A DNA stretch of 64,000 nt, from IMG/VR virus record IMGVR_UViG_3300046453_000063, positions 1 through 64,000 of that record; one strand, written 5' to 3'. Below are positions 12,499 to 49,800 of this stretch, one piece after another; position 1 is the first letter of the stretch, and each line of letters opens with the position of its first letter. Under the pieces are notes generated by a model. It was not told the origin of the DNA. It ran no database searches and worked only from the letters and a program-made list of their open reading frames with translations. The translations under genes and the position numbers were made by a program. The stretch is from a virus.

Positions 12499-15400
12499 TT
12501 GAGTCAAATGAAGTATTATGGTGGTGTAAATTATTCCAATTTGAATGGAGAGATTTCAATCATGAAAGACAACCTAATTCAATTGACTACATACAATCAA
12601 TTTGGTGAGTTTAGTTTCTATGTTGATCCTAAGCAGATTAGAGCCTACCTGGATAGTATTTTGTCTGAAGTTGAGGTAGAACAGTTTCTCGAAGAATGTA
12701 CATTTAAGGATACTAGAATGTTGTTTGATTGGATTAAGAGTGAATCCTTAAAGAAGGTAGAGTAAGGGGAAGGGGGGGGAGACCATGGAATCAAAGGTTC
12801 CAACTATTGAGGAGTACAAGGAAGCCCTTAATTGGATAGTTGATCAATTTGAAAAAGTACTAGCAGGAGAAAAGGCAGGGAATGTAGTCGAGAGCCTGTC
12901 ATATGCCAAGTCATTGTTAAAATCTTGATAAATGTTTACTTTTAAAGACAAAGGAGATATAAAAATGCAGCTTTATCAATTTTGGTGGCGCGAAGCATGG
13001 GAAGAAGAAACAGGAGAGCCTTTGGCTCATGAAAAGGTATTCTCCAGGGAAGAATTAGCAGGATTTATAAAAGAATCGAATTATATGTCAAGCATCGAAA
13101 AACTTGAGAATTTCTTAATTGAAGAAAAAGGTTTTTACAAGCCCAATTGCATCAGAGTGGATGCAGATGATCCACTAAAAGCTTGATAAAAGCTTGATTT
13201 GATCAGAAAGTTGGTGACTGGTTGAAGTGTGAACATAAGCATATTGCAGTTGTTTTTGCAGCAGGCAAAGAATTGGATAGTGGAGGAATTGAAAAGGATC
13301 TTGTGGTTGATTGCTCAGATTGCCATGAAGAGTTGTTTAGAATGTCCGTTTATCATAAGCAAATATTTAATCTTTTGCCAGATTGAATAAATGAAATTTA
13401 AATCCACAAGAAAGGGAAGTGAAAAAATGGCGTTTGTGATAGTGATCCGAGATGTTGGAAACCCACATGCAGATTTTTACGCTGGTGGAACATATCAATG
13501 TGAACGAGAAATCTATCCAGTGACAGCATTAGGTGATACGGACGCTAAAATATACCGTACTCGTAGAATGGCAGAAAGAGCGGCTGACGGACTTGATAAG
13601 AGAACACGTTTTATCTATACGGTAGTTGAGCTGCCTGAATAATGAGGGAGGAGGTTTAGAAAATCCTTATAAACACTGGGTTTTTTGATCACCAAAGTGC
13701 ATGAAAGCCCGATTTCATAAGGGTGAATAATACATTAAAAGGATAATATTTAATGATTAAAACTGATTTTGCATATACTGATTAATTTGAGCAAGAAAGT
13801 CGCACCACAAAAACTTGTACTGAAGCAGTTTTGGAAGAAGGGGTACACTTGATTTTTTAATTGATGAATTCAAATGTTTTTTGTTGGCAGCAGGATTTAT
13901 AAAAAGAACAGGTTGAGAAGATTGGATATATAGAGTAATAAGCACATGAAAGTTCTGTTTTATGAAAAGTAAATATAAGGAGGTATAAATGTGATCAAAG
14001 AAATATACAATTTCAGCCCCGAAGTCTTCCAAGCAAAATTGGGGAATAAAAAGGAGTTGTTATCAAAACTATTTCATGAATACCGCTTCAATAGGTTGTC
14101 TGAAACCAAAGAAGAAATTGAAAATATATTATTCCAAATATGGGATGAAATGGCGACAGAGAATCTACATGAGATTTTCAACAATTTTGCGGACGTAAAA
14201 GATATTAACCTCACTTTATTAAGAAAGGAGAGAATAAATGATACTAAGTAAATACATAGAGAACCAATTGGCAGAACTAATTGAGCCAATGCACAGAGAC
14301 AGCATGTATTGTATGCATCTTGACGGTGGATTTGCTAAAGACGAAGCATATGAACTTGGATTTGGCGTTGTGGAAAATGAATTTTAGAAAGGAGTAAACA
14401 TGAAGAATCAAAGAATCTTAGACAAAGAAGAACTTGATGAATTGTCGGAAATGTGGAAATCGGTATCTGACTTTATGCCACATAGAAATCATACGTGGGC
14501 ATTAGTTTACAGGTTGACAAGTAATGGAGAATATGAGGTGGTTGAGTTTTATATTGATTTTGAAAAAACACTAGAAAATGAAGATCCTGAGTATTTGACA
14601 CCCGAAAGAAAACATGGTGTTTTTGCAACGGAAGAATTTGCTCAATTCTATATCAACTCTGTTTACATGATACAGAGTATCGTTGCTCCAGACACAGTAA
14701 TTGAATAACCGAATGAATCCCTCATTTTACAAAGAAACTTAGGAAGGAGAGCGTATGAAAATAGATGGATATGCAATTTTAGTAGTAAACGAAAATGGAA
14801 CAAAATCGTATGTGGTTGACCATAATAGTCACGATAACAGACTCCAGCATTGCCTTCAATGGGGAGATATGAACCTAGAGGAAGAACTTCTTCCTGATGG
14901 ATTAAATGACTGCTTGGTTATGGTGTTTTTCAATTACACTTCGGTTCGATCAAGTTGTTGGGAATATGATGAGTATGAAGATATTCTAACAATCCAGCAG
15001 CATGTAGTAATGCAAGAGAGCTACAAGGAGTTTTGGAGAGAACAAATATCTTTCACGATTACATATGATGGACACAGAGAGTGCCCAAGAGAGTTTGAAG
15101 ATAAAGACAAAGAAGTGGAAAATTGGGTGGATGAGTTAATAGAAGAATGGGAAGAACTTTATGATGAAGAATTTATACTTCATAAGAAATATGAACATAA
15201 AAATAAGCACGCTCGAACAAATAGTTGGTTATTTGATTCAAAAACCCTTGACTTATAAGGCTTTTTTAGACCACATTTCCTCATGAAAGAGGTATTTTAT
15301 CAAAATATGAAAAGGAGATGTTGTTGTGAGTAAAGTTGTGATCACACAGGAGCAAAAAGAGGTCCTGCTTTATATTTTAAATATTTATAGCAGCGAAGAT

Positions 15401-16462
15401 ATTGTTAGGAAACATGCGTCAGCTAATAATTTTTGGCTTAACCAAAATTGGTCTGAATTAATAAATGTTGAATGTCTGAACCAGTTAAGCGTAGACGAGG
15501 TAATCAAAGCTCTTTATGTGGGATATGAAGTAATTAAGACTCCACAAGAAACGTTGCTCGAATGTCATAATGGTTATTTAGATCACTCTCAAAGGGAATA
15601 TAGTTTTAATGTGGACGAAAAGAGAGGATTTAGAATAGGCATCGCGGTAGCATGTTTTGTGTTGGGTGAAAAGATTGCGGGTATTACTGAATAAATATAA
15701 ATATCATTAGAAAGGTAGTGAATATATGAGCAAAAAGATTGTATTAGTGCTTGATGTTGAAGTTATAGATGATAATTTCGACATCCAAGATATGACTGAT
15801 TCATTCAAACAAGTTCTTGATCACGTAGAAGAAACGTTTATCGAAAACCTCACTCTTTATGAGCAAGAGGATGAAACGTTTGAAGAATTACTAAAAATCA
15901 TCTCACATGAAGAAGGGAAGAGATAAATGGATTATATTCTATTTCATAATTTTGAAGATGGAACGAAAGTGTTTGGATGCTATAGCGACTATGAGGAAGT
16001 AAAAGAAGCCTATGATGATGCCGTAGAACATTACAAGAAACACAAAGTTGCAGTTGAGGTGGGCTTTGCAGAGATTCAGAAAGTACAGACGTTTAATTGG
16101 CCTGAATAATAAAAATAAAAATACATAGAGGTATTAATATGTCTATAGTTTATTTACCTGACAATTCACTTGAGATTATCGCGGATAATAATGATCTTGT
16201 CAAACTCATCAAACAACACATAGGATATGAAATTGCTCAACTTGTAGAGGAATTGTGCAAGTCAGCAGATAGAGAGCAAATTCGAGCAGATAGTGATTTA
16301 TTGAGTTATGAATCTGAGTTAGAAGATAATAAAATAGCTTTTGATGTTTTAGATGATGATATTAATCTTTTACTTCGAGAGTTATCTACTCCAAGAATCA
16401 ACAGGGAGAAAATACGAGACATTGCTAAACAGATGAAGTGTATTGTGCAAGATCAAATGTAG
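12499..16462 (+). other. Cluster of small hypothetical genes delimited by dyad sites
   Basis: ORFs at 12499, 12786, 12932, 13391, 13991, 14400, 14755, 15326, 15726, 15927, 16139. Confidence 0.75.
13753..13938 (+). pseudogene. Decayed small gene between two dyad sites
   Basis: MIKTDFAYTD*FEQESRTTKTCTEAVLEEG/DFLIDEFKCFLLAAGFIK/EQVEKIGYIE*, with one stop and two frameshifts. Confidence 0.5.
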
Positions 16463-16480
16463 AGAAAGGAGTGAATTAAA

Positions 16481-17050
16481 TTGGCACTTGTCAAATGTCC
16501 TATCTGTGAGCAACGCGGACACAAAGAAAATATGATCCAAGAAGATAAAAGATATTATCACGTTGAATACTGCCATGATAAGTGGAAGCGAGACAAAGAA
16601 GCGACAAGGATTGAAAATCAACAATGGGACGATTTATACCAATACATAATCAAGCTGCACGATATTATTGTTCTACCAAAAGGGAACATTACAAGACTAA
16701 AGGATCTGAGAGCAGGATTCGATACTAAGAATGGTAAACGGGAAAGAAAATGGCGTACAGGTGCGGATTTCCTACTGATGCTGGAAGCCTACAAGCTAGC
16801 CGAAGATAGTATCAAATGGTGTATTGTTAATAAGCTAGATGGTAGTAATGATACTAAAGCCATCAATTACGGAATCAGTATTATGATTGATAAACTGAAT
16901 GATGCTTTCGCAAGACGAAAAAAGAGGGAATACCATCAAGAACATCTTGAAAGGACTAAGGTTTCTAATCAGGATATGAGTTTGGATACAGAAAAATTAA
17001 AAAGTAAAAATAATAAGTCAGATGAATTAGATATCAGCGCTTTTCTATAG
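16481..17050 (+). CDS. Zn-finger protein upstream of the helicase (possible loader/initiator accessory)
   Basis: CPIC...H..YC motif; position directly before helicase-primase as in SPbeta-like phages. Confidence 0.45.
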   Translation: MALVKCPICEQRGHKENMIQEDKRYYHVEYCHDKWKRDKEATRIENQQWDDLYQYIIKLHDIIVLPKGNITRLKDLRAGFDTKNGKRERKWRTGADFLLMLEAYKLAEDSIKWCIVNKLDGSNDTKAINYGISIMIDKLNDAFARRKKREYHQEHLERTKVSNQDMSLDTEKLKSKNNKSDELDISAFL

Positions 17051-17062
17051 GGGGAATTATTT

Positions 17063-18562
17063 ATCAACTACATAGACGAATTTGTAACACCATCCAAGAT
17101 ACATGAATCTTTGTTTGTCGGGTATTTGTGGAGTTCTCCAGCCCTTTATGAAAAATATAGAAATCATGAGATTAGCAAGGATACTTTTACTGAACCTATA
17201 TGGTGGTTTTTCTATTATATCGGTAAAGAAATGTACCAAAACGGAATCAGAACGCTGGATGATACTACCGCTTATTCATTTTTAACATCGCGCCCAATCG
17301 AAACAGGGAAGAAGTCTTACTTTGAGTATTATAATCAATATGGCGGTTACAATTCCATCGAAGAAATTAAAGAGGAATGCAGAAGAGATAAAGGAAATGA
17401 TGAGTATCATTTTTCTGAAATTCAGAAGTATGAAAGTTTACGAAAGTTTCAGAGCGAAAGTTTAATTGATGTTACAAATAAGGAGTTAGTCATTAAACTA
17501 ACAAAAATGACTCTGAAGCAAATGCAATCATTCTTCCAATTCAAAACAAGTTCCATCTTCTCACACATCAATTGCGGTGAAGTGGTCGAATACAACCTAA
17601 TTGATGATCTTGGAACTGCTATTGATAAAATGAATGAAGGAGAAGCGATGGGATTGCCTCTTCATGATTCTCCAAGATTGAGTAAAAAGATTAAGGGCTG
17701 GAGAAAGGGAGAGTTAATCTACTTAATCCTCAGTTCGGGCATCGGGAAAAGTTCAATTTTTATGGAAAAATTTATAATGGCATTACTTGAAAACGATGAA
17801 AAAGGCATGATGTATGCGAACGAAGAAAATGTTTGGAAGGCCAGAAACCTCATGCTCGCAACAATTTCATCTAAAATTTTACACAAACCAGTCAATCGAG
17901 AAAAGTTGATCGAGGGGAATTTTGATCAAAAGACAATTGATAAATTGAATGCAGCAAAAGAATGGGTCGAGAAGAAGCCCAAGGATATTATTAAGTTTTA
18001 TGACCTAAAGAAATACCGTGCAGAAGACGTTATAAGCCGCATACAGATGATGAGACCACTCGGGTATGGATATGCCGGATTAGATACATTTAAAGCTTCC
18101 TCATCGGCTGATATGGCTCGATGGGAGGCATTCAGCAATGATGCTCAAGCTATTTTTGACTGTATAAAGGCAGAAGCCAACAATGTAGGTATGCTTGCAA
18201 CTGTGCAATTGAAGATTGGTAAAGAATATCGTTACCTTGATATGAGCGCAATTGGTAAATCACTAGAAATTGTTGAGGTTGCTTCAACGGTTCTAATGGG
18301 TAGATTGATATTCGCGGATGAGTTTCCAGGACGAAAAGAAGCATTGTTTACATATAACTGGAAAATTGATGAGTTTGATGGTAAGTGGAAAAAAGAAGAA
18401 TATAAACTTGATCCTGAAAAAACGTATCTAATCTTATTTATTAATAAAAATCGCTCAGGTGATACATCTGAACAAATTATCTATGAAGTAAACTATGGTA
18501 TAAATTCATTTAAAGAGGTCGCATATAGTCAGATGGGCAAAAAATCGAATTCTCAATTTTAA
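17063..18562 (+). CDS. Replicative DnaB-like helicase
   Basis: Walker A LSSGIGKS, ANEE, TVQ and KNR motifs; frame is open back to ATC 17063 behind a GGGGGA RBS (ORF track start 17111). Confidence 0.85.
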   Translation: MNYIDEFVTPSKIHESLFVGYLWSSPALYEKYRNHEISKDTFTEPIWWFFYYIGKEMYQNGIRTLDDTTAYSFLTSRPIETGKKSYFEYYNQYGGYNSIEEIKEECRRDKGNDEYHFSEIQKYESLRKFQSESLIDVTNKELVIKLTKMTLKQMQSFFQFKTSSIFSHINCGEVVEYNLIDDLGTAIDKMNEGEAMGLPLHDSPRLSKKIKGWRKGELIYLILSSGIGKSSIFMEKFIMALLENDEKGMMYANEENVWKARNLMLATISSKILHKPVNREKLIEGNFDQKTIDKLNAAKEWVEKKPKDIIKFYDLKKYRAEDVISRIQMMRPLGYGYAGLDTFKASSSADMARWEAFSNDAQAIFDCIKAEANNVGMLATVQLKIGKEYRYLDMSAIGKSLEIVEVASTVLMGRLIFADEFPGRKEALFTYNWKIDEFDGKWKKEEYKLDPEKTYLILFINKNRSGDTSEQIIYEVNYGINSFKEVAYSQMGKKSNSQF

Positions 18563-18597
18563 TAAATAGACGCAAATACTCCTATGGGGGAGCCTAA

Positions 18598-19674: not shown

Positions 19675-19713
19675 GATAAATTACAGGTTTTATTAAAAGA
19701 GAGGACGATTAAA

Positions 19714-20824: not shown

Positions 20825-20827
20825 ATA

Positions 20828-21110: not shown

Positions 21111-21790
21111 ATGTCATTTTGCTCACATGGTCATGGTCAAAGTTGTTTCTATTGTGAGAATTGTGAATGTCATTTTGGTATTGAATGTTTAGATGTTCCT
21201 GAATATGTCTACTGTCCTAGATGTGGAAGTGAAGACACCACATCCACAAATGAAAGGTTGGTTGGTAAAGTTTATCGAGAATATGAGTCTGTAGAACAAT
21301 ACGAACAAATGCGCGAAGAGATGCAGGAGTTCAAAAGGATATATAAAGAACTAAATGAAAATGTGTCGCCTTTCAAAACCCTTGATAAATAAGGGTTTTT
21401 TGTACATCGTTTCTTCATAAAATAAAGATTTTACGCAATCTTCAGCCGGGTGTATTTAATAAATAAATATATATCAAGAAACCATTGACATTCATTTAAT
21501 AAATAAATATAATAAGAATATGACATGAGAGAGGGATGATTATCTTGTCTATTACTGAGATCAAAGCATCTGATTTGAAGCTTACCGAAGACGAAAATGC
21601 AGCAAGGTACATTGAAATATGGAGCAATAAATGGGGGAGTAAATTAACAATTGGAGGACTGTATGAGATAAAGAGATCATACGGAAGCCCTCAGATATAT
21701 GGTGACGAAGGGGAAATGTATATTGTAGACGACGAAGGTAAAGATGCATATGGATTTCAAATGTTATGTGATGTTAACTACTATGAATAA
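21111..21790 (+). other. Two small hypothetical genes (21111 Cys-rich, 21536)
   Basis: ORF track, RBS. Confidence 0.7.
21455..21513 (+). promoter_or_regulatory. Consensus SigA promoter with two TTTAATAAATAAATATA repeats
   Basis: TTGACA(21485-21490)-17 bp-TATAAT(21508-21513). Confidence 0.85.
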
Positions 21791-22645: not shown

Positions 22646-25600
22646 ATGTCGTTGAAAATTGTAGATGAAACAGTTTATGTGATTTATAAAAACGGTGTCC
22701 CTTATGAGGGCGATGGAAGAAAACTTGTATATACTTCTACGGGTGCTGCAAATGGTGTAATTACAAAAGAAGCAAAACGTGATGCTGAACGTAATTATAC
22801 AACAACAAGAAATTATCTAACGGATATAGACTGGTATGAACTGGGTTGGAATTCAAGGGAATATTTGATTGATAGAGTTAAAGAGGAATTTACTATAGTT
22901 GAATATGGGCCAAAGGAGAGAAATTGATGCACTATCTATCAAAGTTTAATAATCGTGGAGACCTGAGAGCACTTGAAGACATTAGACAATATTCTATTGT
23001 GGTCAAAGATGAACAAGGCTTGCGATATATTGATCCTGGCGATGATATTACAAAAGTAGAAACTTACTTTGTAAATCAAGTATTCCCAATAGGCAATGAT
23101 GAATTAATTATTCAAAAAGGAAGAATGATTAGAACTGTAAGAGTTGATTTAAATTTCAGAGATTTTTAAAGAAACTAACAATTTAAAAACCTGCATAAAC
23201 ATTGACTATTTTGAAACGAATATCATGATAAAATTTGTGTTTTATAAGGAGTTGAGAATATATGAATGAAATAGCAATGCATATTCAAAAAGCTTATGAG
23301 CACATTCAACAAGCGGAAAAATTATTGAACGGTATCGAAGGTGATGGCAAATCCATCTCAGCGCTGAAAATATTCTTCAAGGATCATGTAACAAGTCATG
23401 AGACGTACGTAGATTGGACTAAGAAATATCTTGAAATTTAACGAAATTAGAATTTCATGAGGAGAAGGGAGAGATTTTAGTTTGAGTATTTATTATGGTA
23501 TTGGAACAAAATTAAGAGATAACAGAGTTTTCTTCTTAAGTAGCCAAGAAGATCCTGACTGTTGGGTTGCAGATATTGATGAGGCATTGAACTGGGAGTC
23601 AATCAAAGAACTTCCAGAAATGTACGAAGAAGAATTCATTGTAGAAATCACAGGAAATGGATATGGCGATGTTATATCGTGGAAAATTTTAGAGGGCAAT
23701 ACGATAAATTAAGAGATTTATAGTAAACAGTAGTAAAAATATACAAAATAAGAAGAGGAGATAAAAAATGAAAAAAATAAAAGTATTATTGGCAGTATTA
23801 ATGACGGTGATTGCATTAACTGGTTGCACAACAGAAGCAGACAAGGTTAGCCAAAATCTGTCGTTAGAAGCAGATAATTTTAATGTTGTTCGTCAATTAA
23901 CCGTAATTAACTGCGTACAGGGAGATACGTTATTTCAAATGACAGGAAAAATGTCAATAAAAGCAGATAGCACTGATAATCAACTTGAAATTGTTGTTGA
24001 AGATGAAAATGGGAATTACCAAAAACACTTCATAGGCTTAAGCGACAATGTGTCGTATGTTGTGGAGCAAAAAGAATATAAAAATGTAAGTAAATATAAA
24101 TATACGTTGAATTATAACCCTAAAATGTGGATTCCCATTGATGTCAAAACAATCGAATAATCAAATATCTAATAAACAGTTAGAAAATATAGTGACAAAT
24201 TAACAGGTCATGAAAGAATAGCTAATCAAGAAACGGAGGTTAAATAATGGCGGATACGGTTTACGTTTTGTATTTTAATGAAAGTCAATATGTTGATAGT
24301 CTTGACCTAAGCAATAGAGAATGTAGCGTTATCGATGATCCAAAAAATGCTGAACAATTTAGCAAGTCAGAGGCCAGTTATTATGCTGAAAGATTAGGCT
24401 GTTCATATAAGGCCATTGAAATTGAGGAATAGGGGGATAGGAAATGAAAGTAGACAATGAATTTCTTGTGGCAATGGCCGATAAGTTAAATGAAATTGCA
24501 GAACGAACAAGCGACATTGAAACTGCACACGAGCTGGATGAATTTGTTCAAGTCATTATTTATTCTCTGAGTTAATCAGAAAATAGTTTCATGAAGAAGG
24601 GAGGAAGATTTAAATGTTTGAGACACTATACTGCTCAAAATGCAATGATGATTTTCTTGTGAAACCGGGAGATATAGAGTGGATTAAACACAAATGTTCG
24701 CACTGCTTAGAGGTAGAACAGAATGATTTTTGCGAAGAGTGTGGTAGAGATCTAGATGGTTCAGAGAATTACCGTGAAGTGTGCAATAGATGCGCTAAGT
24801 CGTGCAACATAGATAACTGATAAATACATACTTTTATGAAGAAATGGGGTTAAGACGATGAGTATAAAAGAAACCATGAATTACATAGAGGACAACAAAG
24901 AAAGATACTTAGCAACAAAATTTGAAAATACATTAAAGGAACAATTTACAGGTGAGCATCTTCAAGTTATTGGAAGCATAATGGTTGGCAATAAAAAGTG
25001 CGGATGCGGAATGTGTGGACAGTCAACTAATTTTATTGATGTTTTAAGCGAAGATTACATTTGTAGCGAATATTGCCGCAATAAATTCTATGAGTTACTA
25101 GACTCTTTGATACCGGATGATAAACCGTACTCGGAGAAAGATTGTGAAGACGCAAAACAACAAGGACTAGATTTGGATGACTGGAACGATTACAAAAAGT
25201 ATTTTCACTTAGAAGAATATGCAGATGACGCGAGAGAATTTTATGAGTAAAAATGAGCAAAAAATTATAAAAGCACTTATTGCTAAAAATTATCCTAATG
25301 AATTAATTTCTGTATCGTGGAATCCAATCAATAGGGGTATTGAAATGGGCGGTATGGAAGGTGGATGGATGGTAGAAATCAAAAATTATGATTACGTTTT
25401 TGGCTTCAATATTAATGATGTAATTGAAAATATTGATAGAATGAATAATTTTGATCCTGAATTTTTGTAAATTTCAAAAGAAACGAGGAGTTAAAATGTT
25501 TGCATGGTGTATGGAATATCCACTCTTTACTTTTATCCTTGGAATATTGATGCTTATGATGATCGACAATGTGTTGGCAAACATATCAAAAGTACAAGTT

Positions 25601-28496: not shown

Positions 28497-31400
28497 ATGA
28501 CATTTTACGGCCTAGCAACAACACAAGGTGGAGCAAGTGTAGTAATTAGAGATTTTACAGCAACAGATCGGATTGGTGTAGAAAATGAAGCAAAAGCTTA
28601 TTGCAAGAAACAAGGGCTGGCATTTGATAAGGTATTGCCAGAAAAGAATACAGTTAAAGGGGGAGCTACACTAACAAAATATGCGAAGGGGCGGCAGCAA
28701 TTGAATAACAAGCGGTAATAAGTAAATATAATTAGGTCTTCTATAATGGGAGACCTATTCCTTTAAGGAGTGCTTGAATTGAAGGATGAGACAATTTATG
28801 TAGCACCAGAGTCAATCACAAATAAAAATGTTGAATACATAAAGTTGCTAAGTGGGAAAATTGATTTGAAGAAGCCAAGTTTTGCATCAAGTGATGAGAT
28901 AATAGATACACTGAAAGAATTCGATTCAGAAAAACCGCGTAAACATTGAATTTTTTGAGAGCAATAATTTGATGAAAGAGAGATTTCATAAGGAGGTGTA
29001 AACGTGTATTCAAAACTTAGATTAAATTATATTGAAACTGCACAAATGCTTTATGATCAATGGTCTAAACTAACACACAAAGAAAAGAACATTGAGTATG
29101 CAGAGTGGGTAGAAGAAGAATTAACGAATGGTCATTACATTGTTGAGTTGGGTCAATATGGAATTGAAAATACGTACCCAATTCCAGACTATCTGTCTTC
29201 AATTGGTTCAGAAGGCTGTTGGGATGCTATTTACAAAGAATGGTGCAAAAGACAGAGCAAATAAAAGGCGTATTTGATTAGAAAGGAAGTGATCAGTTGA
29301 TATTTACTACTGAGCAACTAGAGGAAATCAAAAACAAAAGGCAATTTCTATCAGATACAGACTCATTGTTAATTTGCCAATTGATAGATGAAGTTGATAA
29401 GTTGTGTGACAACCGAAGAAGCCTATCCATTACATATGTTGAATTGTTTATCGATTATTTTGAATTACTTGATGACCATTTTCCTGATTGGAGAGTATAT
29501 TGCAAACCAAATATCAAGAAGCTACTTCAGCGGCTCGAAGGAGATAAGCAATAATGAACTGGTTAGATACATATCCACACGAACTCTATACAAATGTACT
29601 GCTGCTCGACAATAAAATCGAGTGTTGGAAGATTGGTAATACGAAAGCAGAGTCAACGCATTGGCCTTTCAGTTCCCGTTGGAAAGCCGACAGAATGAAG
29701 TTAGTAGATTACGGACAATACGAATCTTTTGATCTAGGCGACTACACCGTTGAGTCTAAGACGTGGATCGTAAACAATGACCATGAACATAATGATGTAT
29801 TTACGACTCATGCTCCAGAATGGTATCGCCAGTGGGAGCATGCAGATGATTATAAATTGGGGAGGGCTTATTGATTGAATCACGCTGAATATAAAAAGTT
29901 AATCAAGATTGGTGAGGAAGTATGGATTTGCGATTATCGATTTAACGATATTGATAATCAACCAATTCGTCATGTTAAACCAACGAAAGTAATAGTTGTA
30001 AGTAACGAAGAGTTGCCAGGCAATAAAACTGTGTATTATTCCGAATTCCATTTTAGACCGTTTGGAAAGAATGGCAAACCATTAGCTCAAGTAATTGCTC
30101 CATATGATAATACAGGATATCGATCAAACACAGGGACATCACTCAATATCTTCTATGATGAGAAGGAATGTGTGAAACATTATAAGAAACAGTGCAGAAC
30201 AATTATTATTGATTTTGAAGCAGCAAAAGAATCCAAATTGAAATATTATGATAAGAAGATTGAACAGGTTCAAACTGAAATGGAGGAGTTTTAACATACT
30301 TTTGTTGGTATTATTATTCATTTTGTTAAAGAAAGAGGAGAATAAATGACTGAATTTTTCAATGAATATGGGATTAACTTTGCAAATGAAATATCAAACG
30401 ATTACCTTGTAACATTTGATCAGGCATACTCATTGTTTATAATTGCTAATTACAACGAAGACAAAGCTTTTGAATTGTGCAGACAACTTGCAGTTACGCA
30501 AGATATGGGGCAAGTACTTAAATCATTACATGTGAATTAAGTTGATAAATGTCAAATTTCATCAAGATTTTAGAAGGGAGTGCTTATGAGCATATTTGAT
30601 AAATATAACCTACATTACGGAGACGAAAGAAAGACTGTTATCGATATAAAAAGTATTAAAAGTGTTTCTGATGAAGAAAGTAGATATGATTATTTTGAAT
30701 TAAACAATATTATTGAACATTCACTTGGATTCGATACCAGAGGCTGCGAAAAGAATCTTGTAAAACTGGGATTTAGTATTCCTAAAAGATACTATAACGA
30801 AGAAGAATTTAAGTATTGTGATTATTGGCATTATCAATTAGAAGCTGCATTCAGGAGAGAGGTACGTAACGATAGCGCTAACTCAATTTATGTTGGAACA
30901 GAAAAAGGTATTGATTATAAGAAACTAAAAAGACAACCGAATGATTGGCAAAGAATGATCTTGGAAAAATGGAATACTTTATTGCATCCATTGGCTGATG
31001 AACAAGGTTGGATAAAAATAGTTATATGGTGGTAGACAAGAGGAAATGCACAATTGATGAAGAAAAGGAGGACAGAACTTGAAAGATGAAAGAGAATTCG
31101 AAAACGAGAATAGAATGTTATTGGGCAATATAGCTAGAATAATTCTTTCAAATGACGCAGATGAGATAGGAAATATGAGAATATGTGCGCATAAACGAAT
31201 TGATGAAATGGCTGATTTTAAAATACAAAAAATTAATGAAAGCAACTCGTAAGAAAGGAGTGAGATATATTGGACTTCAATAAAAAACTAATGTTTGAGT
31301 ATAAGAACTATAAAGGTGAAATAAGCTTAAGACATACTTTTCCTGAGAGTATTCGTTATGGATCAACGGAATGGCATCCAGAAGAACAGTGGCTGCTCAA

Positions 31401-40083: not shown

Positions 40084-40103
40084 ATATAATAAGAAATTGC
40101 GGT

Positions 40104-41473: not shown

Positions 41474-41540
41474 CCTATAGATATATCTGGCGGTGGTTAA
41501 TCCATCGCCTTTTAACTTACAAATTAAGGGAGGAAATAAA

Positions 41541-42404: not shown

Positions 42405-42907
42405 CCTACCCATTAACAATCATTGTAGCTATGGATCGTAATGGACTTATCGGTTCAAATAGTCAACTCCCTTGGTATATTCCAGCAGACTTAAATTTCT
42501 TTAAGTCAACTACCATGTACAATAATGTAGTAATGGGTCGATCAACTTTTGAATCAATTGACAAACCACTTCCCAAACGAACAAATATCATCCTAACTTC
42601 GCAAAAAGATTACCCTGTTCCACCTGATGGATATGTTTATGACCACTTAGATGATGTATTGGTTCATTCATTTGTTGATGAACTCAGATCGACCTACATT
42701 ATTGGCGGATCGTCAATTTACTCACAATTCCTTCCTCATGCTGAGAATATGATCATAACTCACATTGATGCAGAGTTTGAAGGAGACGTTTATTTCCCCA
42801 ACTACGATAAGTCAGAATGGGAATGCATCCATGAAAGAGCCATTCCTGAAGGTTTAGACACTGATTACAACTTAACAATAAAACGTTACAAAAGATTTAA
42901 TAAATAA
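42401..42907 (+). CDS. folA: Dihydrofolate reductase
   Basis: IG...LPW..P.D, MGRST, PLPKR, IIGG. Confidence 0.95.
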
Positions 42908-42939
42908 ATATATACAAATTAATTAAACTATGTTATGAT
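42896..42939 (+). promoter_or_regulatory. SigA promoter with TTTAATAAATAAATATA repeat
   Basis: TATACA(42911-42916)-17 bp-TG.TATGAT(42934-42939). Confidence 0.7.
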
Positions 42940-42996
42940 GAGTACAGGTTAAGAAACACGCCTGTACTTTATTTTATTTCTAGGGAGACGATACAT

Positions 42997-43269
42997 ATTA
43001 AAAAAGAATCTAAAGAAAAACAGAAAATCAACTCAGATGTTCAAGCAATCCTCTCACTTTGTTGGGGAGAAAATGATGAACGCAGATGCACAAGTTTTAT
43101 TGTTGATGGTAAGCATGAGTACACAACAAGAGATGGTTTAACGTACAAACCAACAAACAATACATATGAAGAACTCGTTAAGTATCAAGAAGATGAAAAC
43201 AGCAGACCAATCAAGCTTTATCGTAACGGAGATTATGTAAATATCACTGGAGGAGTGATTATTAAATGA
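42997..43269 (+). CDS. 90-aa hypothetical protein with ATT start (not in ORF track)
   Basis: First position after a promoter, agggag RBS, open frame KKESKEKQKINSDVQAILSLCWGEND...GGVIIK* with no usable ATG/GTG/TTG. Confidence 0.6.
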   Translation: MKKESKEKQKINSDVQAILSLCWGENDERRCTSFIVDGKHEYTTRDGLTYKPTNNTYEELVKYQEDENSRPIKLYRNGDYVNITGGVIIK

Positions 43270-45884
43270 TTAAATATTTTCGGAGACTGAAGACCAAAGT
43301 TATTATTCGTATCTTTTGGATGAACATTTTTGATTCTGTAAGAAATAATCATCGTGATATGGTTTATGAAATTGCATACGAAATGGGCAGAGCTAAACAG
43401 CGTAATGATGTTGAACCTTTGGAGGGAACTTATGAAGATTAGTCAAAATGTAAGGTATAAATATATGGAGATTTGTCCTAATAGTACAATGAAATGCGAT
43501 ACATATGAAGAAATTGATTACAAAATTAAACGAGCTGTTGATTTGGGCAGAGTTGTTTATACATATCCTTGCAGAGTTATTCAGTATTATAATTTGAGGT
43601 TAACAGTTGAAATCGGTGATAAAGAAAACACCGTTATTGATATGGAAAAGAATGACGACTTTTATCGAGTAGATGAAGATCGGAAATTTGCACACGAATG
43701 CAAGCATTATAATATGGCTATTTGTGATTTTGATTATCAAGATAATAAAGCGTCAAAAGAAGAGATTATGAATATTCTAGGGAAAAAATTCTTTTAATAA
43801 AAAGGAGATAAAAATGACACCAGAACGGGTTAAACATTTCAAAAGACTTCATATCCAAAAGCATCAAGATTGTGATGCATACCTTACCGTTGGGGATTTC
43901 AATTCTTTATTAGCTGATCTAGAAGAGGCGCAACAACAAATTAAAGATCAGGACGAACTACAGGAAACCACGCTAGGACTCCTTATGGAAGCACAGGAAG
44001 ATTATGAAGAGACGAGAAAACAATTGGCAGAGGCACAACAACGGGCAGAGATTGCTTATCTGGCATACGAAGGATTACAGAATGATTGTGTAAGTCGTGG
44101 GGAGTACGAGTCAATGCTTAACAAAAATACGGTGCTGGCTAAGGCGATTCGAGAGGCAAAACAGACAATATCAAACCAACAAAGCAAGATTGACGCAGCA
44201 TTGTCCTGGACGTGGAACTGTGGTGAGGCAAATATGCTTGAGGTTATCGCAGCGTTGAATGGCAAAGAACAAACCGTACTCACATTCCCAAACTGTCCTG
44301 TATGCAATAGTAATAACACGCTGTCTCACCCAACTAAAACAGGAACGTGGTTGTGCGTTCCATGCAACAAAGTCTTTGAGGAAGGAGAGACCACGTGACA
44401 TTTGAAAACGTAAAGCACAACATCCCAGAGATAATGCGCAGACACCCATTCCAAAAACAACAAAGCGAACATTTTGATTTAGAGGATATTCTGGATGATT
44501 ATGAACTATGTAAGAAAATTTGCTATTTGTACGACATTGGAATAACAATTAAAATGATAAAATCTGTCTACTCTGATATTGAAAACGAGAGAAGCGAAGA
44601 TAATCGAACAGATAATGACTCGATTGAAAACCGAGATTACTATTAATTTAATTCTGGGGTTTAAAAAAATGGCTAAAAATCAACGTTATTTTAAGCTAAA
44701 AACTTCATGAAAGGCGAGTTTTATCAAAACATGGAAATGGGAGTGAAAATATGGCTATTGTTGCAGTATTATTGATTCAAATCTCTTTGTTGATTATTAG
44801 TATTATTGGTTACTTGGGTAAACTCAAAAAATATAAATATGAAAGAATTATTCCATTTATGATAATTTTATTAAGTCTTGTTTTGACATTTATAATGTTC
44901 AAATGGCTTTAATTAATTGACAATTAAATATGAAAGGAGACTTACTAAATGCTACTCAGCATAATTTTCGGATGGTTAGCTCCATGTTATCTATACATAG
45001 GAATGTTCACGCTGCTAATTGGAATGATCATCGATGGTATTTCAGAATTTGGGTGGAAGCAAACAGCACAATTTATTCTTGCTTGGCCTGTGATTTGGTT
45101 CGTGGTTGTATTGCTTAAACATGATATGTATAAAAATAAGATGGGAAGCAAGAAATGACAACTAAAGTATGCAAAAGACACCAACTTGAACCAGCATTTA
45201 TTTATGGTCAATGCATTGGATGTGAAATTGAGTATTACCAGAAAAAATTAAATGAGAAGGATGAAGAGCTTGAGATGTTAAATAAAGAAATGAAGGAGAT
45301 AAGAGAGAAATATGAAACCGTTGAAAGAAAATGATCTTCCGATTGAGGATATCGACCTTCATGAGATCAGAATGAATGAGGTTATTTTGAAAAGAAGTAA
45401 CGATGATTTGATAAGTATGCTGTCATATATGAGTGGATATGCCGGGAATAGTGAATTTTTTGATGAGGCTTTTCAGTCGGCATTAGTTTATATAGGAGAT
45501 GAGAATTAAATGACAAAAGAAAAAATCCTAAAGATGAACGACTCTGAACTCGATTATTCAATTGCAACAGAATTCTTGAAATGGTATATAACAAAAGGTG
45601 AGTTTAGCGGTAATGAATACTGGAACGATGAGGATGATTATTCTCCATACTCTGTAAATAATTTCTCTCCTTCTAAAAATATTGAGACTGCGTGGACGAC
45701 TGTTGTAGATAAACTAAGTAAGCAAGGAATGAGAATTGTTCTAGAGGACTATATGAATGGAGAGTGGCTGTGCTCTTTGAAGAATATATACGGAGGATAT
45801 ATCATTGGTGTACATAAATTTGATTCGGCAACAAGAGCAATATGCAAAATTGCTTTAATGACATTAATTGATGAATTCTCATGA
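43266..45884 (+). other. Cluster of small hypothetical genes
   Basis: ORFs at 43266, 43354/43432, 43814, 44395, 44752, 44949, 45312, 45510. Confidence 0.7.
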
Positions 45885-45948
45885 AAACTATGTTTTACTT
45901 AGAAAAATTATTCAAAATTGATTTAATAAATAAATATATACATAATTA

Positions 45949-46623
45949 ATGAAACGTGATAAAATATCCTCAAAGGAGAAATCACTACAAATGAACATTG
46001 AAAACATCAGATATGATTCTTCCCTAAATAATGAGCAACTAATTAAACTTGGGAAGGAGACGAATTCTAAGGAAATCCGTGACAAAGTTTGCGAGAATAA
46101 TATTCCGTTAGTCATTAAGCTGGCAAATAAATGGTGTGCTCATAAGAATAAGAAAGATCTAGACGATCTCAGATCGATTGGTCTCTATGGTTTAGTCAAA
46201 GCTTACGATACATATGATGTTAACAATGGAGCTAAGTTCTCAACATATGCAGCAAGAGTAGTTTGGGGTGAATTTTGTAGTCAATATAAATACGAGAGAA
46301 TGAAATGTAGAAGTGGATATGATGTAATTAGCATTGATGAGGGAACTTATCGACTAAACGAGTCAACAAAAGAGCTAACTATTGCAGATATCATTCCAGA
46401 TGAATACTCACTAAATGATTTCGAAGAAGTTGAAAGTAAGATGTATATTGAAAACTTCCTTGACTCATCATTCACAGAAAATGAAAAATACATTGCACGC
46501 AGACACTTTATTGATGGATTCACCATTGCTGAAATCGGCAGAGAAGGAAAGGTTTCTCGTCAAGCAGTTCATCAAACTCATAAACGTAATCTTAAAAAGT
46601 TATCCTTGGCAATTGGCTGTTAG
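45949..46623 (+). CDS. Sigma-70 family sigma factor, sporulation (SigF/G/E/K)-like
   Basis: NIPLVIKLA, DDLRSIGLYGLVKAYDTYD, KFSTYA region 2; T.AEIG....VSRQAV.Q region 4; likely start ATG 45991 after aaggag. Confidence 0.85.
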   Translation: MKRDKISSKEKSLQMNIENIRYDSSLNNEQLIKLGKETNSKEIRDKVCENNIPLVIKLANKWCAHKNKKDLDDLRSIGLYGLVKAYDTYDVNNGAKFSTYAARVVWGEFCSQYKYERMKCRSGYDVISIDEGTYRLNESTKELTIADIIPDEYSLNDFEEVESKMYIENFLDSSFTENEKYIARRHFIDGFTIAEIGREGKVSRQAVHQTHKRNLKKLSLAIGC

Positions 46624-46834
46624 GGGGAATATTCATAAACAAATTCACAATCACAGCAGCAATAACGCTTTGGTTAATCATCATATACATATGCTCAATT
46701 TTAAATGATTCGCCCAAAAGTAAAGGATTGCTATGCATAACATTGGCGTTCATATTTATGACTATAGACTCATACATAAAGTTACACAAGAAATGACAGC
46801 ATGAGAAGTAATTAACTCTTAGGAGGAATTACGC

Positions 46835-49800
46835 TTGATAATAAAAATAATAAATGCAAAAGATGGTCATTGGTACAAAGATGCAGTAGGATTTAATTTT
46901 GATGCTGAACTAAAAGTTAATCCTAAATTCCAAACAAGATACTATCAACTGCTAAACACAGAAAGGAATCAATCTTACTTTGTAGATGATGAGTTTGAAT
47001 TATTGTTTTTATTGTCTGGATGTAAGGGTGTCGAATATTGGGATGCTATGAGAACATGGGAGGAGGAATAAAGATGGAGCAAGAATGTACTAATGGATGT
47101 GGAAAATTGGAAAGTGTGCGTGGTCATATTGAGACAAATGACGGACGTACATATTTTAAAGTGGATATTTTATATTGTCCAGATTGCCTATGTATAGAAT
47201 ATGTTGATGCAAATTTATAGGACGATCAAAGGCTGCTTTTATCAAAAATTATGAGGAGAGATAAAATGATTGGATATCTAAATAGTAAATCGGAGAAGCA
47301 AATTGAGACGATGCTGAACAATTTTGAGAAACTAAATAAACACTATCTTCAAGAAGTTACCATTGTTAACGAATTTGCAGGTCATTGCTTTGACATTGGA
47401 CAAAAGGTACTACTCGTAGACATTATTGATGCTGAAATTCCACTATATAAGGCAGTTGATTTAGAACATAAGCAAAAATGTGTAATCCAAGAAGATGAGT
47501 TTGAAGTTGGATTTAACACAACTTTTAAGGAGGTTGAACCATGGAACTAACCAATAGTCAAAAAACAACGGTGTTTCAAACTATCGAAGACAAACTTTTT
47601 ACACTGCAATATAAAATTTGGGACTATGAAAAACTTGAACAAACTAAAGAAATGGTTTTTCATATCAATAATCTTAAGAAAGACCAAACAGAGCTTCGTG
47701 AAGTAAGAGATATGCTACAAAGAGAGATTGAACTTAGCACAAAATAAATATTAGGAGGGAATTATAAATATATGACAATGATCTATAAAGTTGAACAAAT
47801 TGATTATATGGGTTATCCAGCCTACGAAAAATATTTTAGTGGCAAGAATAATGCCGAACAGGACTTTGAAGATCGACTACTACATATTAAGAAAACAGAA
47901 AACATTGTTGACCCAGAAGAACATTATAAAGAGAACGAAATTTTACTAGGAGAAAACAATAAAATTAAGACTGAAACTGTTTGGTATTGGGAAAGAACGA
48001 GTTATGAATATGAAGAATATGATAGGTATCCCATTGAACTAAACATTAGAGAGATTGAATTGAATTAAATAAAGGGAGTTGAGTAAATGACAATATATAA
48101 AGGCGATTACTATTGTGAAAAGTGCCGACCAGAGCATTATGTTACTTTGTCCTATGAAACACCTACGTGTCCCTGCTGTGGATCGAAAATGACTGAATTT
48201 TTCACGGACGATTAAAAATGATCATCTAAAAAACCGCTAAAACATTGGGTTTTTTAGATGACAAAACTTTATAAAATGAGACTTTCATTAAAATAAAAGG
48301 AGATAAGATATGGATAATGATAAATTAACAACAGAACATGAATTGTTTATTTCGATTGGATTAAAAGTTCCTATTAAACCTTCTGTATTTAGTAAAGAGA
48401 TTGACTCAATGATATTTGAAAATATTGGATACGTACAAAGCTGGGGAGTACACACTAAACACGAATACATAGAGTTGTGTAGTTCATTACAAGATAGACT
48501 GAATAAAGTAACAGACGCTCTAACTTGGATTAGAAAGAATTATGAAGAAGATTGGACATATGAAGAGGGCATAGGTGAGGCCGTATCTGGTATCATTCTA
48601 TCACTGGAAAATGCCTTAGATATTACCTAATGAAAACTGAAATTTATCAAGAAAAAAGGGAGGTAGTCTCAATGGAAGTTGGTTATACATTAAAGGGAAA
48701 ATGGTTGGGAGAAGACTGGCGAAGCAATATCTTCACCGATGCAGAGGATTGTAGTTCTCTTTATTGGAAACTTATTAATGACCGAGATTATGAATCTCTC
48801 AAAGAACATATTGTGTATATGCATTTTTAAGAAATTAAGTATGACTAAATTCAGATAAAACTTTACTTTTATGAATAAATATACGAGGGAGAATAAATAT
48901 GAAAAATTATGAAGAATATGAAAAATACTTTAAAAATGGAGAGCTAGACATTCTAAGTAAATACACCTCGATTTACAAAAAGACTAAAAATAGGAGAATT
49001 AAAAAGAAAAATTTCAAGAAACTTAAAAAAGACCTCTTCTTACTTATGGATAAAATTTTAACAATAAAAATTCAGGAACAGTTTGATTATTTCGTCAAGG
49101 TTGAAGATTCAATTAAATTTAACAAATAAGGAGATGATTTAGAATGAAAATATTCTTATTAATTGAACTCGATATTCTTTGCGAATCAACTAGGGTACAT
49201 AGCGCATATTTTAATATCAAAGACGCAGAAACAAAGAAGATAGGACTAGAAGAACTATGCGAAGCAAAAGAAGCTACGTACATTGATTATATGCATTCAG
49301 ACGATGAAGAAGATTCTCCAGATTCAGACTTTGATTATGTTTACTTAATTCAAGAAATTGAAGTTCATTAGTGGTGGTTTAAAATAAACTCAATTTTATG
49401 AAGAAGAGGTGAATTGTATTGGAACGATTCTTTTTAAAAACAAATGAAATTACAAAAGAAACATATTTATTAGAAGTAGATGGAGATTTTTATGGTCATG
49501 ACATGCAGAACATGGTAATTGCTAAATTTTATAATCAAGATTATGCAAAAAGAGTATGCTTTTTATTAAATGAGGATTTGTGAGTTGTTAATAAAATATA
49601 GTGAGAGGTGATTTTATGATTGAATTGAACAAGTCTCAAATCCTAGAAATTGTCATGGATCAATTAACGATTCTACACAATCAAACACCATCAAGCATTA
49701 AGGTGAATATTGATTGGCTAAAATTTCGATATGATAAATATAATTCTGAATGGCACTTTATTGTAAAAGATATTGATGAAGGCATTCTAAAATATGCCGT

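What the first reader, a model, noticed from the sequence alone, without database searches (positions are those of the whole stretch)
13660..48288. Seven dyads carry a second element at a fixed 41-42 bp upstream (extended att-like sites)
Seen: an AAAA-(cc)-...-TTTT element begins 41-42 bp before the core at 13660/13701 (aaaatccttataaacactgggtttttt), 15241/15283 (aaaacccttgacttataaggctttttt), 21375/21417 (aaaacccttgataaataagggtttttt), 23186/23228, 28930/28972, 44665/44707 and 48230/48271. Spacing is kept even where self-pairing is poor (23186, 28930, 44665), so a terminator role alone does not explain it. Unrelated upstream proteins end in sequence encoded by this element (...SKTLDL* at 15258, ...FKTLDK* at 21392). 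Inference: this is an accessory or arm-type binding site. It defines two site classes, full and core-only, analogous to attI/attC or attP/attB, which could give the cassette system directionality.
Basis: partly seen in the sequence, partly recalled or inferred. Interest (0 to 1): 0.75.

Follow-up and report, generated by a model that had tools for sequence, protein, structure and literature searches.

The report
Hairpin-plus-dyad junction module in phage
Seven gene junctions of this large SPbeta-related phage carry a real two-part DNA signal, a weak terminator-like hairpin held 14-15 bases from the phage's common junction palindrome; it looks like transcription punctuation at mosaic gene boundaries, not a recombination (att-like) site.

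Summary
Each has an A-run, a 16-19-nt inner segment, a T-run, a 14-15-nt spacer and the dyad ATRAAA-N6-TTTYAT. The pairing is far beyond chance: 0 of 2000 local-jitter controls reached it. It recurs, with a 13-17-nt spacer (15 in 22 of 32 units), in metagenomic relatives and in two Paenibacillus genomes, probably prophages.

The att-like reading is not supported:
- The second element is a palindrome, and its inner part lies in either orientation.
- The unit occurs in both orders relative to genes.
- A dyad with the same N6 has the hairpin in one phage and lacks it in another.
- Homology between relatives breaks at three different edges of the unit.

The dyad half-sites vary independently, so the dyad is a double-stranded DNA site, not an RNA hairpin.

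Best reading (moderate confidence, inferred): the hairpin is a weak bidirectional terminator. Its U-tract sits about one RNA-polymerase stall distance (about 14 nt) from a protein-bound dyad, giving roadblock-assisted termination. Some copies are decaying relics. The binding protein is unknown and no RNA data exist.

The scan found the same module earlier in a related Paenibacillus phage (e1-5686114) and drew a similar conclusion.

The parts
13660..13686 (+). Second element, copy 1: A4, a 17-nt inner segment (TCC...GGG), T6. Begins 18 nt after the stop of ORF 13391-13642.
   Evidence: RNA fold -6.5 kcal/mol, z -2.0. The 75-bp unit is conserved in G001, G002 and L083 between unrelated flanking genes.
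13701..13718 (.). Core dyad, copy 1 (N6 = GCCCGA), 14 nt after the T-run.
   Evidence: The same N6 is found in G001, G002 and L083.
15240..15267 (+). Second element, copy 2: A5, 17-nt inner segment, T6. The stop codon of ORF 14755-15258 lies in its loop.
   Evidence: RNA fold -3.9 kcal/mol. In a groundwater relative (X2) homology stops at 15268, the right edge of the element.
15283..15300 (.). Core dyad, copy 2 (N6 = GAGGTA), 15 nt after the T-run, then RBS and GTG at 15326.
   Evidence: The same dyad in G001 (137009) has no hairpin upstream. In L083 it has one.
21375..21401 (+). Second element, copy 3, the best-formed hairpin (CCCTT/AAGGG stem, 7-nt loop, T6). The stop of ORF 21111-21392 lies in the loop.
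   Evidence: RNA fold -9.7 kcal/mol, z -2.8. Homology with G001 starts at 21372 and with X2 at 21375, the left edge of the element.
21417..21434 (.). Core dyad, copy 3 (ends TTTTAC), 15 nt after the T-run. It is followed after 21 nt by the promoter-associated motif TTAATAAATAAATATA.
23185..23212 (+). Second element, copy 4, decayed: A5, 19-nt inner segment without pairing, T-run cut to T4.
   Evidence: RNA fold 0 kcal/mol. The dyad with the same N6 in G001 (144373) has no such element.
23228..23245 (.). Core dyad, copy 4 (N6 = TTTGTG), 15 nt after the T-run, directly followed by the RBS.
28930..28956 (+). Second element, copy 5: A5, 16-nt inner segment without pairing, T6. The stop of ORF 28770-28949 lies inside it.
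   Evidence: RNA fold 0 kcal/mol. The same non-pairing form is conserved in G001 149374.
28972..28989 (.). Core dyad, copy 5, 15 nt after the T-run, directly followed by AAGGAGG and GTG at 29004.
   Evidence: Homology with G001 and with X2 ends exactly at 28989, and a different cassette follows.
44663..44692 (+). Second element, copy 6, divergent or decayed: A7, 19-nt inner segment, T4.
   Evidence: RNA fold -2.4 kcal/mol. The unit alone (84 bp) is conserved in G001.
44707..44724 (.). Core dyad, copy 6 (N6 = GGCGAG), 14 nt after the T-run.
48228..48255 (+). Second element, copy 7: A6, 16-nt inner segment (CC...GGG), T6.
   Evidence: RNA fold -6.5 kcal/mol, z -2.8.
48271..48288 (.). Core dyad, copy 7, 15 nt after the T-run, then RBS and ATG at 48310.

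Best explanation
The 'second element' is the terminator-type half of a conserved two-part junction module of about 75 bp. The module reads: A-run, CC(C), loop, (G)GG, T-run, then 14-15 bp, then a protein-binding dyad.

Shown:
- The module is a repeat family of this SPbeta-related phage lineage, whose host is probably Paenibacillus.
- Its internal lengths are constrained.
- It sits at or over the end of the upstream ORF.
- The dyad behaves as a symmetric double-stranded DNA site.
- The unit marks points where related phages differ in gene content.

Inferred mechanism: the hairpin with its T-run is a weak, bidirectional intrinsic terminator, or at least a U-rich release element. The fixed gap puts the edge of a dyad-bound protein about 14 bp ahead of the last U. 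That is the distance at which a tightly bound protein stalls bacterial RNA polymerase. When the protein is bound, polymerase is held on the U-tract and released (roadblock-assisted termination, in the manner of a stoperator). When it is absent, the weak hairpin is read through into the next gene.

Copies with no pairing and a broken T-run (23186, 44665) are probably decaying relics that keep the spacing by descent.
For: Anatomy: 32 units from at least seven genomes align almost without gaps. The inner segment is 16-19 nt, the spacer is 15 nt in 22, 14 in 6, 13 in 2, and 16 and 17 in one each, and the span from A-run start to dyad is 42-43 nt in 27 of 32.

Association beyond co-location in intergenic space: 0 of 2000 jitter controls reached the observed count. 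Strict A-run/stem/T-run hairpins are rare (4 in G000), and 3 of the 4 have a dyad 14-15 nt away. The phage's stronger canonical terminators have none nearby.

The element follows or contains the stop codon of the upstream ORF. Four of the seven elements have at most 4 of 200 shuffles folding as well; two more (13660, 44665) have 11 of 200.

The dyad is a DNA site. At the R/Y position of the half-sites, G..T (30) and A..C (37) are equally common on the coding strand, and Watson-Crick combinations are not enriched.

The gap equals the stall distance. EcoRI-Q111 stops E. coli polymerase at 'a defined stop 14 nt upstream' of its site (PMC5499547).

In three of the four units with the shortest T-run (T4) the inner segment also fails to pair; the fourth (44707) still pairs weakly.

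In SPbeta, an unrelated strong terminator (yosA, - strand) has its first T6 run ending 14 nt from a dyad.

A precedent for many intergenic elongation-blocking sites in a temperate phage is the L5-type stoperator (PMC9283540).
Against: - There are no expression data, and the dyad-binding protein is unknown.
- The hairpins are weak (-9.7 to 0 kcal/mol). Two of seven do not fold, and I saw no compensatory changes among copies.
- The left arm (A-run plus CC) is better conserved than the right arm, and the model does not explain why the distal A-run is kept.
- Three units (86.1, 140.5, 142.4 kb) lie dyad-then-hairpin after a gene end. There the geometry would act only on antisense transcripts.
- Dyads in general have no T-run at -14 to -20.
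- The spacers of different copies share sequence (for example a TTCCTC-like end), so part of the fixed spacing is simply common descent.
Confidence: 0.4

Rival explanations
1. The unit is an inherited linker module with no functional coupling between its halves. It is a repeated intergenic 'linker' (like PeSL) spread and reshuffled by recombination between copies. Hairpin and dyad each have their own role or none, and the fixed spacing only reflects common descent.
For: Spacers and inner segments of non-orthologous copies are recognisably related. The unit is an island of identity between unrelated genes in four phages. Breakpoints lie at its edges. Decayed copies keep the spacing. The inner segment flips between copies, as expected for palindromes.
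Against: Copies differ at about half of the inner and spacer positions, yet lengths vary by only +-1-2 nt. The A-runs and T-runs are hardly ever broken while the inner sequence diverges. This A/T-run hairpin type is almost always next to a dyad, whereas other terminators never are.
Confidence: 0.25
2. The element is a DNA-level accessory or bending site for the protein complex on the dyad. This includes the first reader's att-like version. The phased A-tract and T-tract bend the DNA or bind the phage HU-like protein next to a dyad bound by a tyrosine-recombinase-fold protein. The complex would serve regulation or site-specific exchange of cassettes.
For: The A-run, T-run and lengths are conserved even where pairing is lost. 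The dyad has 6-bp core arms (about 9 bp counting weakly conserved flanking bases) around a variable 6-bp centre, like simple tyrosine-recombinase core sites and like operators. DNA-binding proteins conserved in G000-G003 and SPbeta include an HU-like protein, a YopP-like tyrosine recombinase with R, HxxR, H and Y motifs, and an MrpR-family protein. MrpR shows that this fold is used as a repressor in SPbeta (PMC10516654). Dyads with identical N6 persist between unrelated flanks.
Against: The element is a palindrome with a flippable inner part, so it cannot encode direction. It occurs on either side of the dyad relative to genes. Full or core-only status changes between close relatives at the same dyad. 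Breakpoints lie at three different edges. Pfam detects no arm-binding domain. No excision or circle junctions were seen in the only DNA runs, which are contigs, so this is weak evidence.
Confidence: 0.13
3. The unit is an RNA-level two-hairpin element in polycistronic mRNA, acting as a processing site, a 3' stabiliser for the upstream cistron or a translational operator for the downstream one.
For: It lies between cistrons, just upstream of the RBS at the seven window sites. T7 and SP82 have conserved intercistronic RNase III sites (own knowledge).
Against: The dyad stem shows A.C as often as G.U on the coding strand, and its loop is variable while its arms are fixed. That is the opposite of an RNA hairpin signature. 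The first hairpin is weak or absent in several copies. Units occur in both orders and on non-coding strands. There is no Rfam match.
Confidence: 0.07
4. The unit is a promoter, with the TTGACT-like hexamer in the inner segment or T-run as -35 and the left dyad arm as -10, for host sigma-A or the phage sigma factor.
For: Several inner segments end in TTGACT, TTGAAT or TTGGGT, and some left arms read TATAAA. The phage encodes a sigma-70-family protein.
Against: The hexamers are 19-21 bp apart and ATGAAA arms make a poor -10. The consensus scan found no more promoter-like sites than in shuffles. The phage's recognisable promoters carry a different motif, TTAATAAATAAATATA. SPbeta has the dyads but, as far as I know (not checked here), no such sigma factor.
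Confidence: 0.05

Closest known systems
PeSL (promoter-early stem-loop) cassettes of T4-type phages (PMC2839356, PMC4122927)
   Same: Short composite regulatory repeats with a stem-loop, found between small accessory genes. They are conserved while the flanking genes differ, and they sit at insertion, deletion and replacement breakpoints.
   Different: PeSLs join an early promoter to a terminator stem-loop. Here there is no promoter in the unit. The partner of the hairpin is an 18-bp dyad at a fixed 14-15 bp, and the lineage is SPbeta-like rather than T4-like.
SAS / ESAS (start-associated and extended start-associated sequences) of Cluster K mycobacteriophages (PMC3203893)
   Same: A short conserved motif lies just upstream of many gene starts. 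A subset (about half there, about a third here) carries a second, inverted-repeat element immediately upstream. The function is unknown.
   Different: The SAS is an asymmetric 13-mer tied to the start codon (my recollection of that paper; one search did not show its length or distance to the start codon), and ESAS sites go with particular gene families. Here the core is a symmetric dyad 14-30 nt from the start, and the second element is an A-run/T-run hairpin whose presence is not tied to a junction or gene.
Stoperators of L5-type (Cluster A) mycobacteriophages (PMC9283540)
   Same: Dozens of repressor sites in short intergenic spaces of a temperate phage, which stop elongating polymerase. The site density is comparable.
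   Different: Stoperators are asymmetric 13-mers, orientation-dependent, bound by a monomer, and have no associated hairpin or T-run. Binding and elongation block are shown there and only inferred here.
SPBRE, the operator of the master repressor MrpR/YopR of SPbeta (PMC10516654)
   Same: A repeated dyad-like site in a related phage, in promoters or just before the RBS, bound by a tyrosine-recombinase-fold protein. This phage has an MrpR-family gene.
   Different: The SPBRE has a different sequence (an ATACA...TGTAT core) and only ten sites. SPbeta also carries 14 ATAAAA-N6-TTTTAT dyads. Upstream of the ten ChAP-seq target genes I found the SPBRE, not this dyad, although two of the 14 dyads lie near or within peak-assigned genes (yorE, yorM). 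SPBRE has no fixed hairpin partner.
Lambda-type attP (core plus arm-type and IHF sites) and integron attC sites
   Same: The dyad has inverted arms around a 6-bp centre. A second element lies about 37 bp (centre to centre) from it. The sites are at cassette-like gene boundaries.
   Different: Arm-type sites are asymmetric, oriented repeats bound by a dedicated N-terminal domain. attC sites have one orientation and fold as single strands. Here the second element is a flippable palindrome found on either side, the dyad shows no single-strand pairing signal, and breakpoints are not confined to the core.
Roadblock-plus-T-rich-release termination (yeast Pol I Reb1, own knowledge; roadblock termination reviewed in PMC10310618)
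   Same: A DNA-bound protein a short fixed distance downstream of a T-rich release element.
   Different: That system is eukaryotic. In bacteria, roadblocks are known but no dedicated hairpin/U-tract-plus-operator module has been described to my knowledge.

Membership tests
Intrinsic (Rho-independent) terminator | A run of T directly after the stem. | tested here: met
   T6 at five sites and T4 at two of the seven. T5-6 in 26 of 32 units (T7 in one, T4 in five).
Intrinsic (Rho-independent) terminator | A stable G+C-rich stem with a short loop. | tested here: inconclusive
   RNA folds are -9.7, -6.5, -6.5, -3.9, -2.4, 0 and 0 kcal/mol. Loops are 7-12 nt. Only 21375 looks like a usual terminator. 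The consensus scan flagged none.
Intrinsic (Rho-independent) terminator | RNA 3' ends map to the T-run. | not testable with these tools
   No RNA run holds this phage.
Lambda-type att site with arm-type accessory sites | Accessory sites are asymmetric and have a fixed orientation relative to the core. | tested here: not met
   The element is a palindrome. Its inner segment is inverted at 68.9 kb versus 86.1 kb and in G003. The element lies on either side of the dyad relative to genes.
Lambda-type att site with arm-type accessory sites | A cognate integrase with an arm-binding N-terminal domain. | tested here: inconclusive
   Two tyrosine recombinases show only SAM-like core-binding and catalytic domains in Pfam. 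About 50 N-terminal residues of one are unassigned.
Lambda-type att site with arm-type accessory sites | Exchange points are confined to the core overlap region. | tested here: not met
   Homology breaks at the hairpin's left edge (21372/21375), at the hairpin's right edge (15268) and at the dyad's right edge (28989).
Integron attC | A single-strand-folding imperfect palindrome at the 3' end of each cassette, in one orientation, with an IntI-type integrase and attI nearby. | tested here: not met
   There is no pairing signal in the dyad. Both orders occur. Only about a third of the window's junction dyads carry the element. I did not test specifically for an IntI-type integrase.
PeSL (T4-type promoter-terminator cassette) | An early sigma-70 promoter joined to a stem-loop. 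| tested here: not met
   No acceptable -35/-10 pair lies within the unit. The phage's promoters carry another motif.
PeSL (T4-type promoter-terminator cassette) | Sits at breakpoints of gene gain, loss or replacement between close relatives. | tested here: met
SPBRE / MrpR operator | A sequence matching the 15-bp SPBRE motif bound by MrpR. | tested here: not met
   The SPBRE recovered from the ten SPbeta targets differs from both the dyad and the hairpin element.
Stoperator-type elongation block | A repressor binds the intergenic sites and stops elongation. | not testable with these tools
   Only the position, the copy number (37 in G000; 21-55 in relatives) and the double-stranded-DNA character fit.

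The most novel reading that the evidence does not exclude
The dyads are heterospecific core sites of one of the phage's conserved tyrosine recombinases. The 6-bp centre acts as a positional address, so that co-infecting relatives exchange gene cassettes only at equivalent junctions. The A-tract/T-tract element, perhaps with the HU-like protein, is an accessory bend that biases which partner sites react. This would amount to a programmed mosaicism system.
Probability: 0.06. Interest if true: 0.85.

Novelty: new variant of a known kind. Interest (0 to 1): 0.45.

Why it matters
Repeated intergenic signals are known in a few phage groups (PeSL, SAS/ESAS, stoperators), and most still lack a mechanism. 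This module has a simple, measurable geometry: a weak hairpin with a U-tract at polymerase-stall distance from a symmetric protein site. That geometry yields a directly testable idea, protein-switchable terminators that insulate single genes in a large temperate phage.

The module also marks where members of this little-studied SPbeta-related lineage swap genes. It is present in the genome of at least one cultured strain (Paenibacillus medicaginis JCM 18446), so experiments are feasible. If it is only an inherited linker, it is a modest addition to the list of phage boundary repeats.

Tried and rejected
- RNA evidence: no RNA holder is listed for this phage. The single read-laying run could use only DNA contigs.
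- Rfam: only two tRNAs in the window, nothing at the units.
- Named phages: no megablast or blastn match of the region or of a 71-bp unit.
- Loose composite patterns scanned over viral and genome collections gave mostly chance hits in AT-rich DNA. Only contigs with full units were kept.
- The consensus terminator scan did not flag the elements, probably because it extends the stem into the A/T runs.
- The promoter reading was rejected on spacing.
- An RNA hairpin reading of the dyad was rejected on half-site independence.
- A general T-run upstream of all dyads was not found.
- A YonO promoter role is unlikely. In SPbeta, YonO transcribes the late genes from a single start upstream of yonK (PMC5467207), and the window units lie among replication and nucleotide-metabolism genes on the + strand, outside the - strand late block.
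- A PDB sequence search with the YopP-like recombinase gave nothing.
- An IHF-type consensus in the element was checked by eye and does not fit.

Full report
CONTEXT
The window is the first 64 kb of a 163,994-bp phage contig with terminal repeats, taken from a rhizosphere metagenome. G+C is 34%. Genes run on the + strand to 62 kb, on the - strand to 114 kb, then on the + strand again.

The phage is a distant relative of Bacillus phage SPbeta:
- Its replicative helicase is 59% identical to those of SPbeta-like phages Goe11/12/14.
- It encodes a YonO-type RNA polymerase, 55% identical to SPbeta YonO.
- It encodes an MrpR-family protein.
- It encodes an HU-like protein and two tyrosine recombinases.

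Full composite units also occur in Paenibacillus medicaginis and Paenibacillus sp. XY044 genomes, so the host is probably Paenibacillus.

THE OBSERVATION
All seven pairs are present as described. Each reads: A-run (4-7), an inner segment of 16-19 nt that usually begins CC(C) and often ends (G)GG, a T-run (T6 at five sites, T4 at two), a 14-15-nt spacer, then the dyad ATRAAA-N6-TTTYAT.

The dyad family is real. There are 35 matches on the + strand of the genome against about 0.9 expected. Four related phage records have 12-50 matches per strand against 0-1 for a reversed control pattern.

The pairing with the second element is not a by-product of both features being intergenic. Of 22 generic A-run...T-run elements in the genome, seven scored as lying 13-16 nt from a dyad. 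No run of 2000 in which the dyads were jittered by +-60 nt reached that number (mean 0.35).

Four more units lie outside the window, at about 68.9, 86.1, 140.5 and 142.4 kb.

WHAT THE SECOND ELEMENT IS
It is a palindrome of the bidirectional-terminator type. The best copy (21375) has a CCCTT/AAGGG stem extended by A.U pairs, a 7-nt loop and T6, and folds at -9.7 kcal/mol. The others are weak: -6.5, -6.5, -3.9, -2.4, 0 and 0 kcal/mol.

It stands right after the upstream ORF or contains that ORF's stop codon. Three unrelated ORFs end in it.

Across 32 units from G000-G003, two further viral contigs and the two Paenibacillus genomes, the alignment is almost gap-free:
- The A-run, the following CC, the T-run and the lengths are kept.
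- The inner sequence, and especially the right stem arm, vary without compensatory changes.
- The inner segment occurs in both orientations relative to the T-run, spacer and dyad. The 68.9-kb copy is close to the reverse complement of the 86.1-kb copy, and two G003 copies are inverted relative to the common form.
- In three of the four units with the shortest T-run (T4) the inner segment also fails to pair, which looks like decay.

The phage's stronger, canonical terminators have no dyad nearby. The rare strict A-run/stem/T-run hairpins almost always do, 3 of 4 in G000. The element is therefore a specific repeat family whose unit includes the dyad.

WHAT THE DYAD IS
At the degenerate positions of the two half-sites, G..T (which would be G.U in RNA) occurs 30 times and A..C (a mismatch) 37 times on the coding strand. 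Watson-Crick combinations are not enriched. The arms are fixed and the 6-nt centre is free.

This is the signature of a symmetric double-stranded DNA site for a dimeric protein, not of an RNA or single-strand hairpin. It is not the SPBRE operator of MrpR, which I recovered from the ten published SPbeta targets and which has a different sequence. SPbeta itself carries 14 ATAAAA-N6-TTTTAT dyads, also mostly before ribosome-binding sites.

TESTS OF THE ATT-LIKE READING
1. Orientation. In the window the order is gene end, hairpin, dyad, RBS. At 86.1, 140.5 and 142.4 kb it is gene end, dyad, hairpin. Together with the flippable inner segment, the element cannot encode direction.

2. Class stability. 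G000 and its close relative G001 share the same series of dyads, recognisable by their N6, in the same order. The hairpin, however, is present at a given dyad in one phage and absent in the other:
   - GAGGTA: present in G000 and L083, absent in G001.
   - TTTGTG: present in G000, absent in G001.
   - GTGGCA and CTTTAC: absent in G000, present in G001.

3. Breakpoints. Homology between G000 and G001, or a groundwater relative (run X2), starts or stops at the left edge of the hairpin (21372/21375), at its right edge (15268) or at the right edge of the dyad (28989, in both relatives). In X2 the 15241-type hairpin is joined, at a 16-nt gap by my count, to the degenerate dyad that lies at 19676-19693 in this phage. 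The 13660 unit is a 75-bp island of identity between non-homologous genes in four phages.

4. Pfam sees no arm-binding domain in the recombinases.

These results fit recombination at, or selection on, a conserved linker. They do not fit crossover at one defined point guided by oriented arm sites. They do not exclude that a recombinase-fold protein binds the dyad. Such proteins are conserved across all dyad-bearing phages compared, one has the full R/HxxR/H/Y set, and MrpR shows the fold serving as a repressor in this lineage.

HOW IT MOST LIKELY WORKS (INFERENCE)
The one feature that a plain 'terminator next to an operator' does not need is the constant gap. A tightly bound protein stalls bacterial polymerase with the RNA 3' end about 14 nt before the site (EcoRI-Q111; PMC5499547). 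The gap from the last T to the dyad is 14-15 nt.

I therefore propose that a dyad-bound protein holds polymerase on the U-tract just after a weak hairpin, so that transcripts are released there. Without the protein the weak hairpin is read through. This would give gene-by-gene insulation, comparable in purpose to the stoperators of L5-type mycobacteriophages.

A single independent case fits the geometry. In SPbeta the unrelated, strong terminator of yosA has its first T6 run 14 nt from a dyad.

Weak points of the model:
- There are no RNA data, and the binder is unknown.
- Conservation of the distal A-run is unexplained.
- There is no compensatory stem evolution.
- In the three dyad-first units the geometry would act only on antisense transcripts.
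- Part of the constant spacing is surely common descent, because the spacers of different copies are related.

I put the mechanism at about 0.4. I put the broader statement, that this is a terminator-type half of a conserved junction module and not an arm-type recombination site, at about 0.7.

COMPARISON AND NOVELTY
The closest described things are:
- PeSL cassettes of T4-type phages (PMC2839356, PMC4122927);
- the SAS/ESAS pairs of Cluster K mycobacteriophages (PMC3203893), where about half of the start-associated motifs carry a second inverted-repeat element;
- stoperators (PMC9283540);
- SPBRE (PMC10516654).

The module here belongs to none of them (see the membership table). It is a new variant of the general kind 'repeated composite intergenic signal at mosaic phage gene boundaries'. 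No named phage record matches it, and Rfam has nothing there.

The scan had already met the same hairpin-plus-dyad module in a related Paenibacillus phage (e1-5686114). It had also described the dyads of this genome as junction markers (e1-5728615). My results agree, and add the half-site independence test, the jitter control, the class-instability and three-edge breakpoint results, and the stall-distance hypothesis.

Noticed in passing
window 227, 21456, 21496, 28434, 33598, 42897, 45923, 50103 and about 40 more genome-wide: A 16-nt motif, TTAATAAATAAATATA (about 50 copies), sits immediately upstream of, or overlapping, the -35 of sigma-A-like promoters, often with an extended -10. Three dyads (21417, 45881, 68942) lie 21-22 nt upstream of it. 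It could be an UP element or an operator.
   Followed up: partly
window 59893-59965 and 59988-60059, - strand: Two tRNA genes, on the strand opposite to the surrounding + strand genes (Rfam).
   Followed up: no
window 19676-19693: A degenerate dyad (ATAAAT...TTTTAT) before gene 19714. In a groundwater metagenome relative (X2) it is preceded by a 15241-type hairpin at a 16-nt gap, and about 4.4 kb including the helicase and primase genes is absent between the two.
   Followed up: partly
window 28989-29860: In the X2 relative, and in G001, the DNA right after the dyad at 28972-28989 is replaced by a different segment (926 nt in X2). This is a clean cassette replacement bounded by the dyad's edge.
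   Followed up: partly
window 2088, 10545, 52606 versus G001 122154, 131127, 2839: The 18-bp dyad, including its 6-nt centre, is an island of identity whose flanks on both sides differ from the first base outward. The order of the N6 'addresses' is collinear between the two phages.
   Followed up: partly
G000 68901-68928 versus 86078-86106 (outside the window); G003 42145, 68849: The inner segment of the hairpin element is inverted between copies while the A-run, T-run, spacer and dyad keep their orientation. This is as expected from loop inversion in palindromes.
   Followed up: partly
G000 114515-115654 (+) and 86433-87515 (-), outside the window: Two tyrosine recombinases. The first is conserved in all relatives and in SPbeta and has the R, HxxR, H and Y motifs. 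In the second the HxxR arginine reads K. The second lies two genes from the composite unit at 86.1 kb.
   Followed up: partly
window 45949-46623: A phage sigma-70-family protein (regions 2 and 4) whose gene is preceded by a dyad and a TTAATAAATAAATATA-type promoter.
   Followed up: no
window 13719-13945: About 230 nt without a convincing + strand gene lie between two dyads (13701 and 13946). At the corresponding dyad, G001 has an 858-nt gene directly after it, which suggests a lost or replaced cassette.
   Followed up: partly
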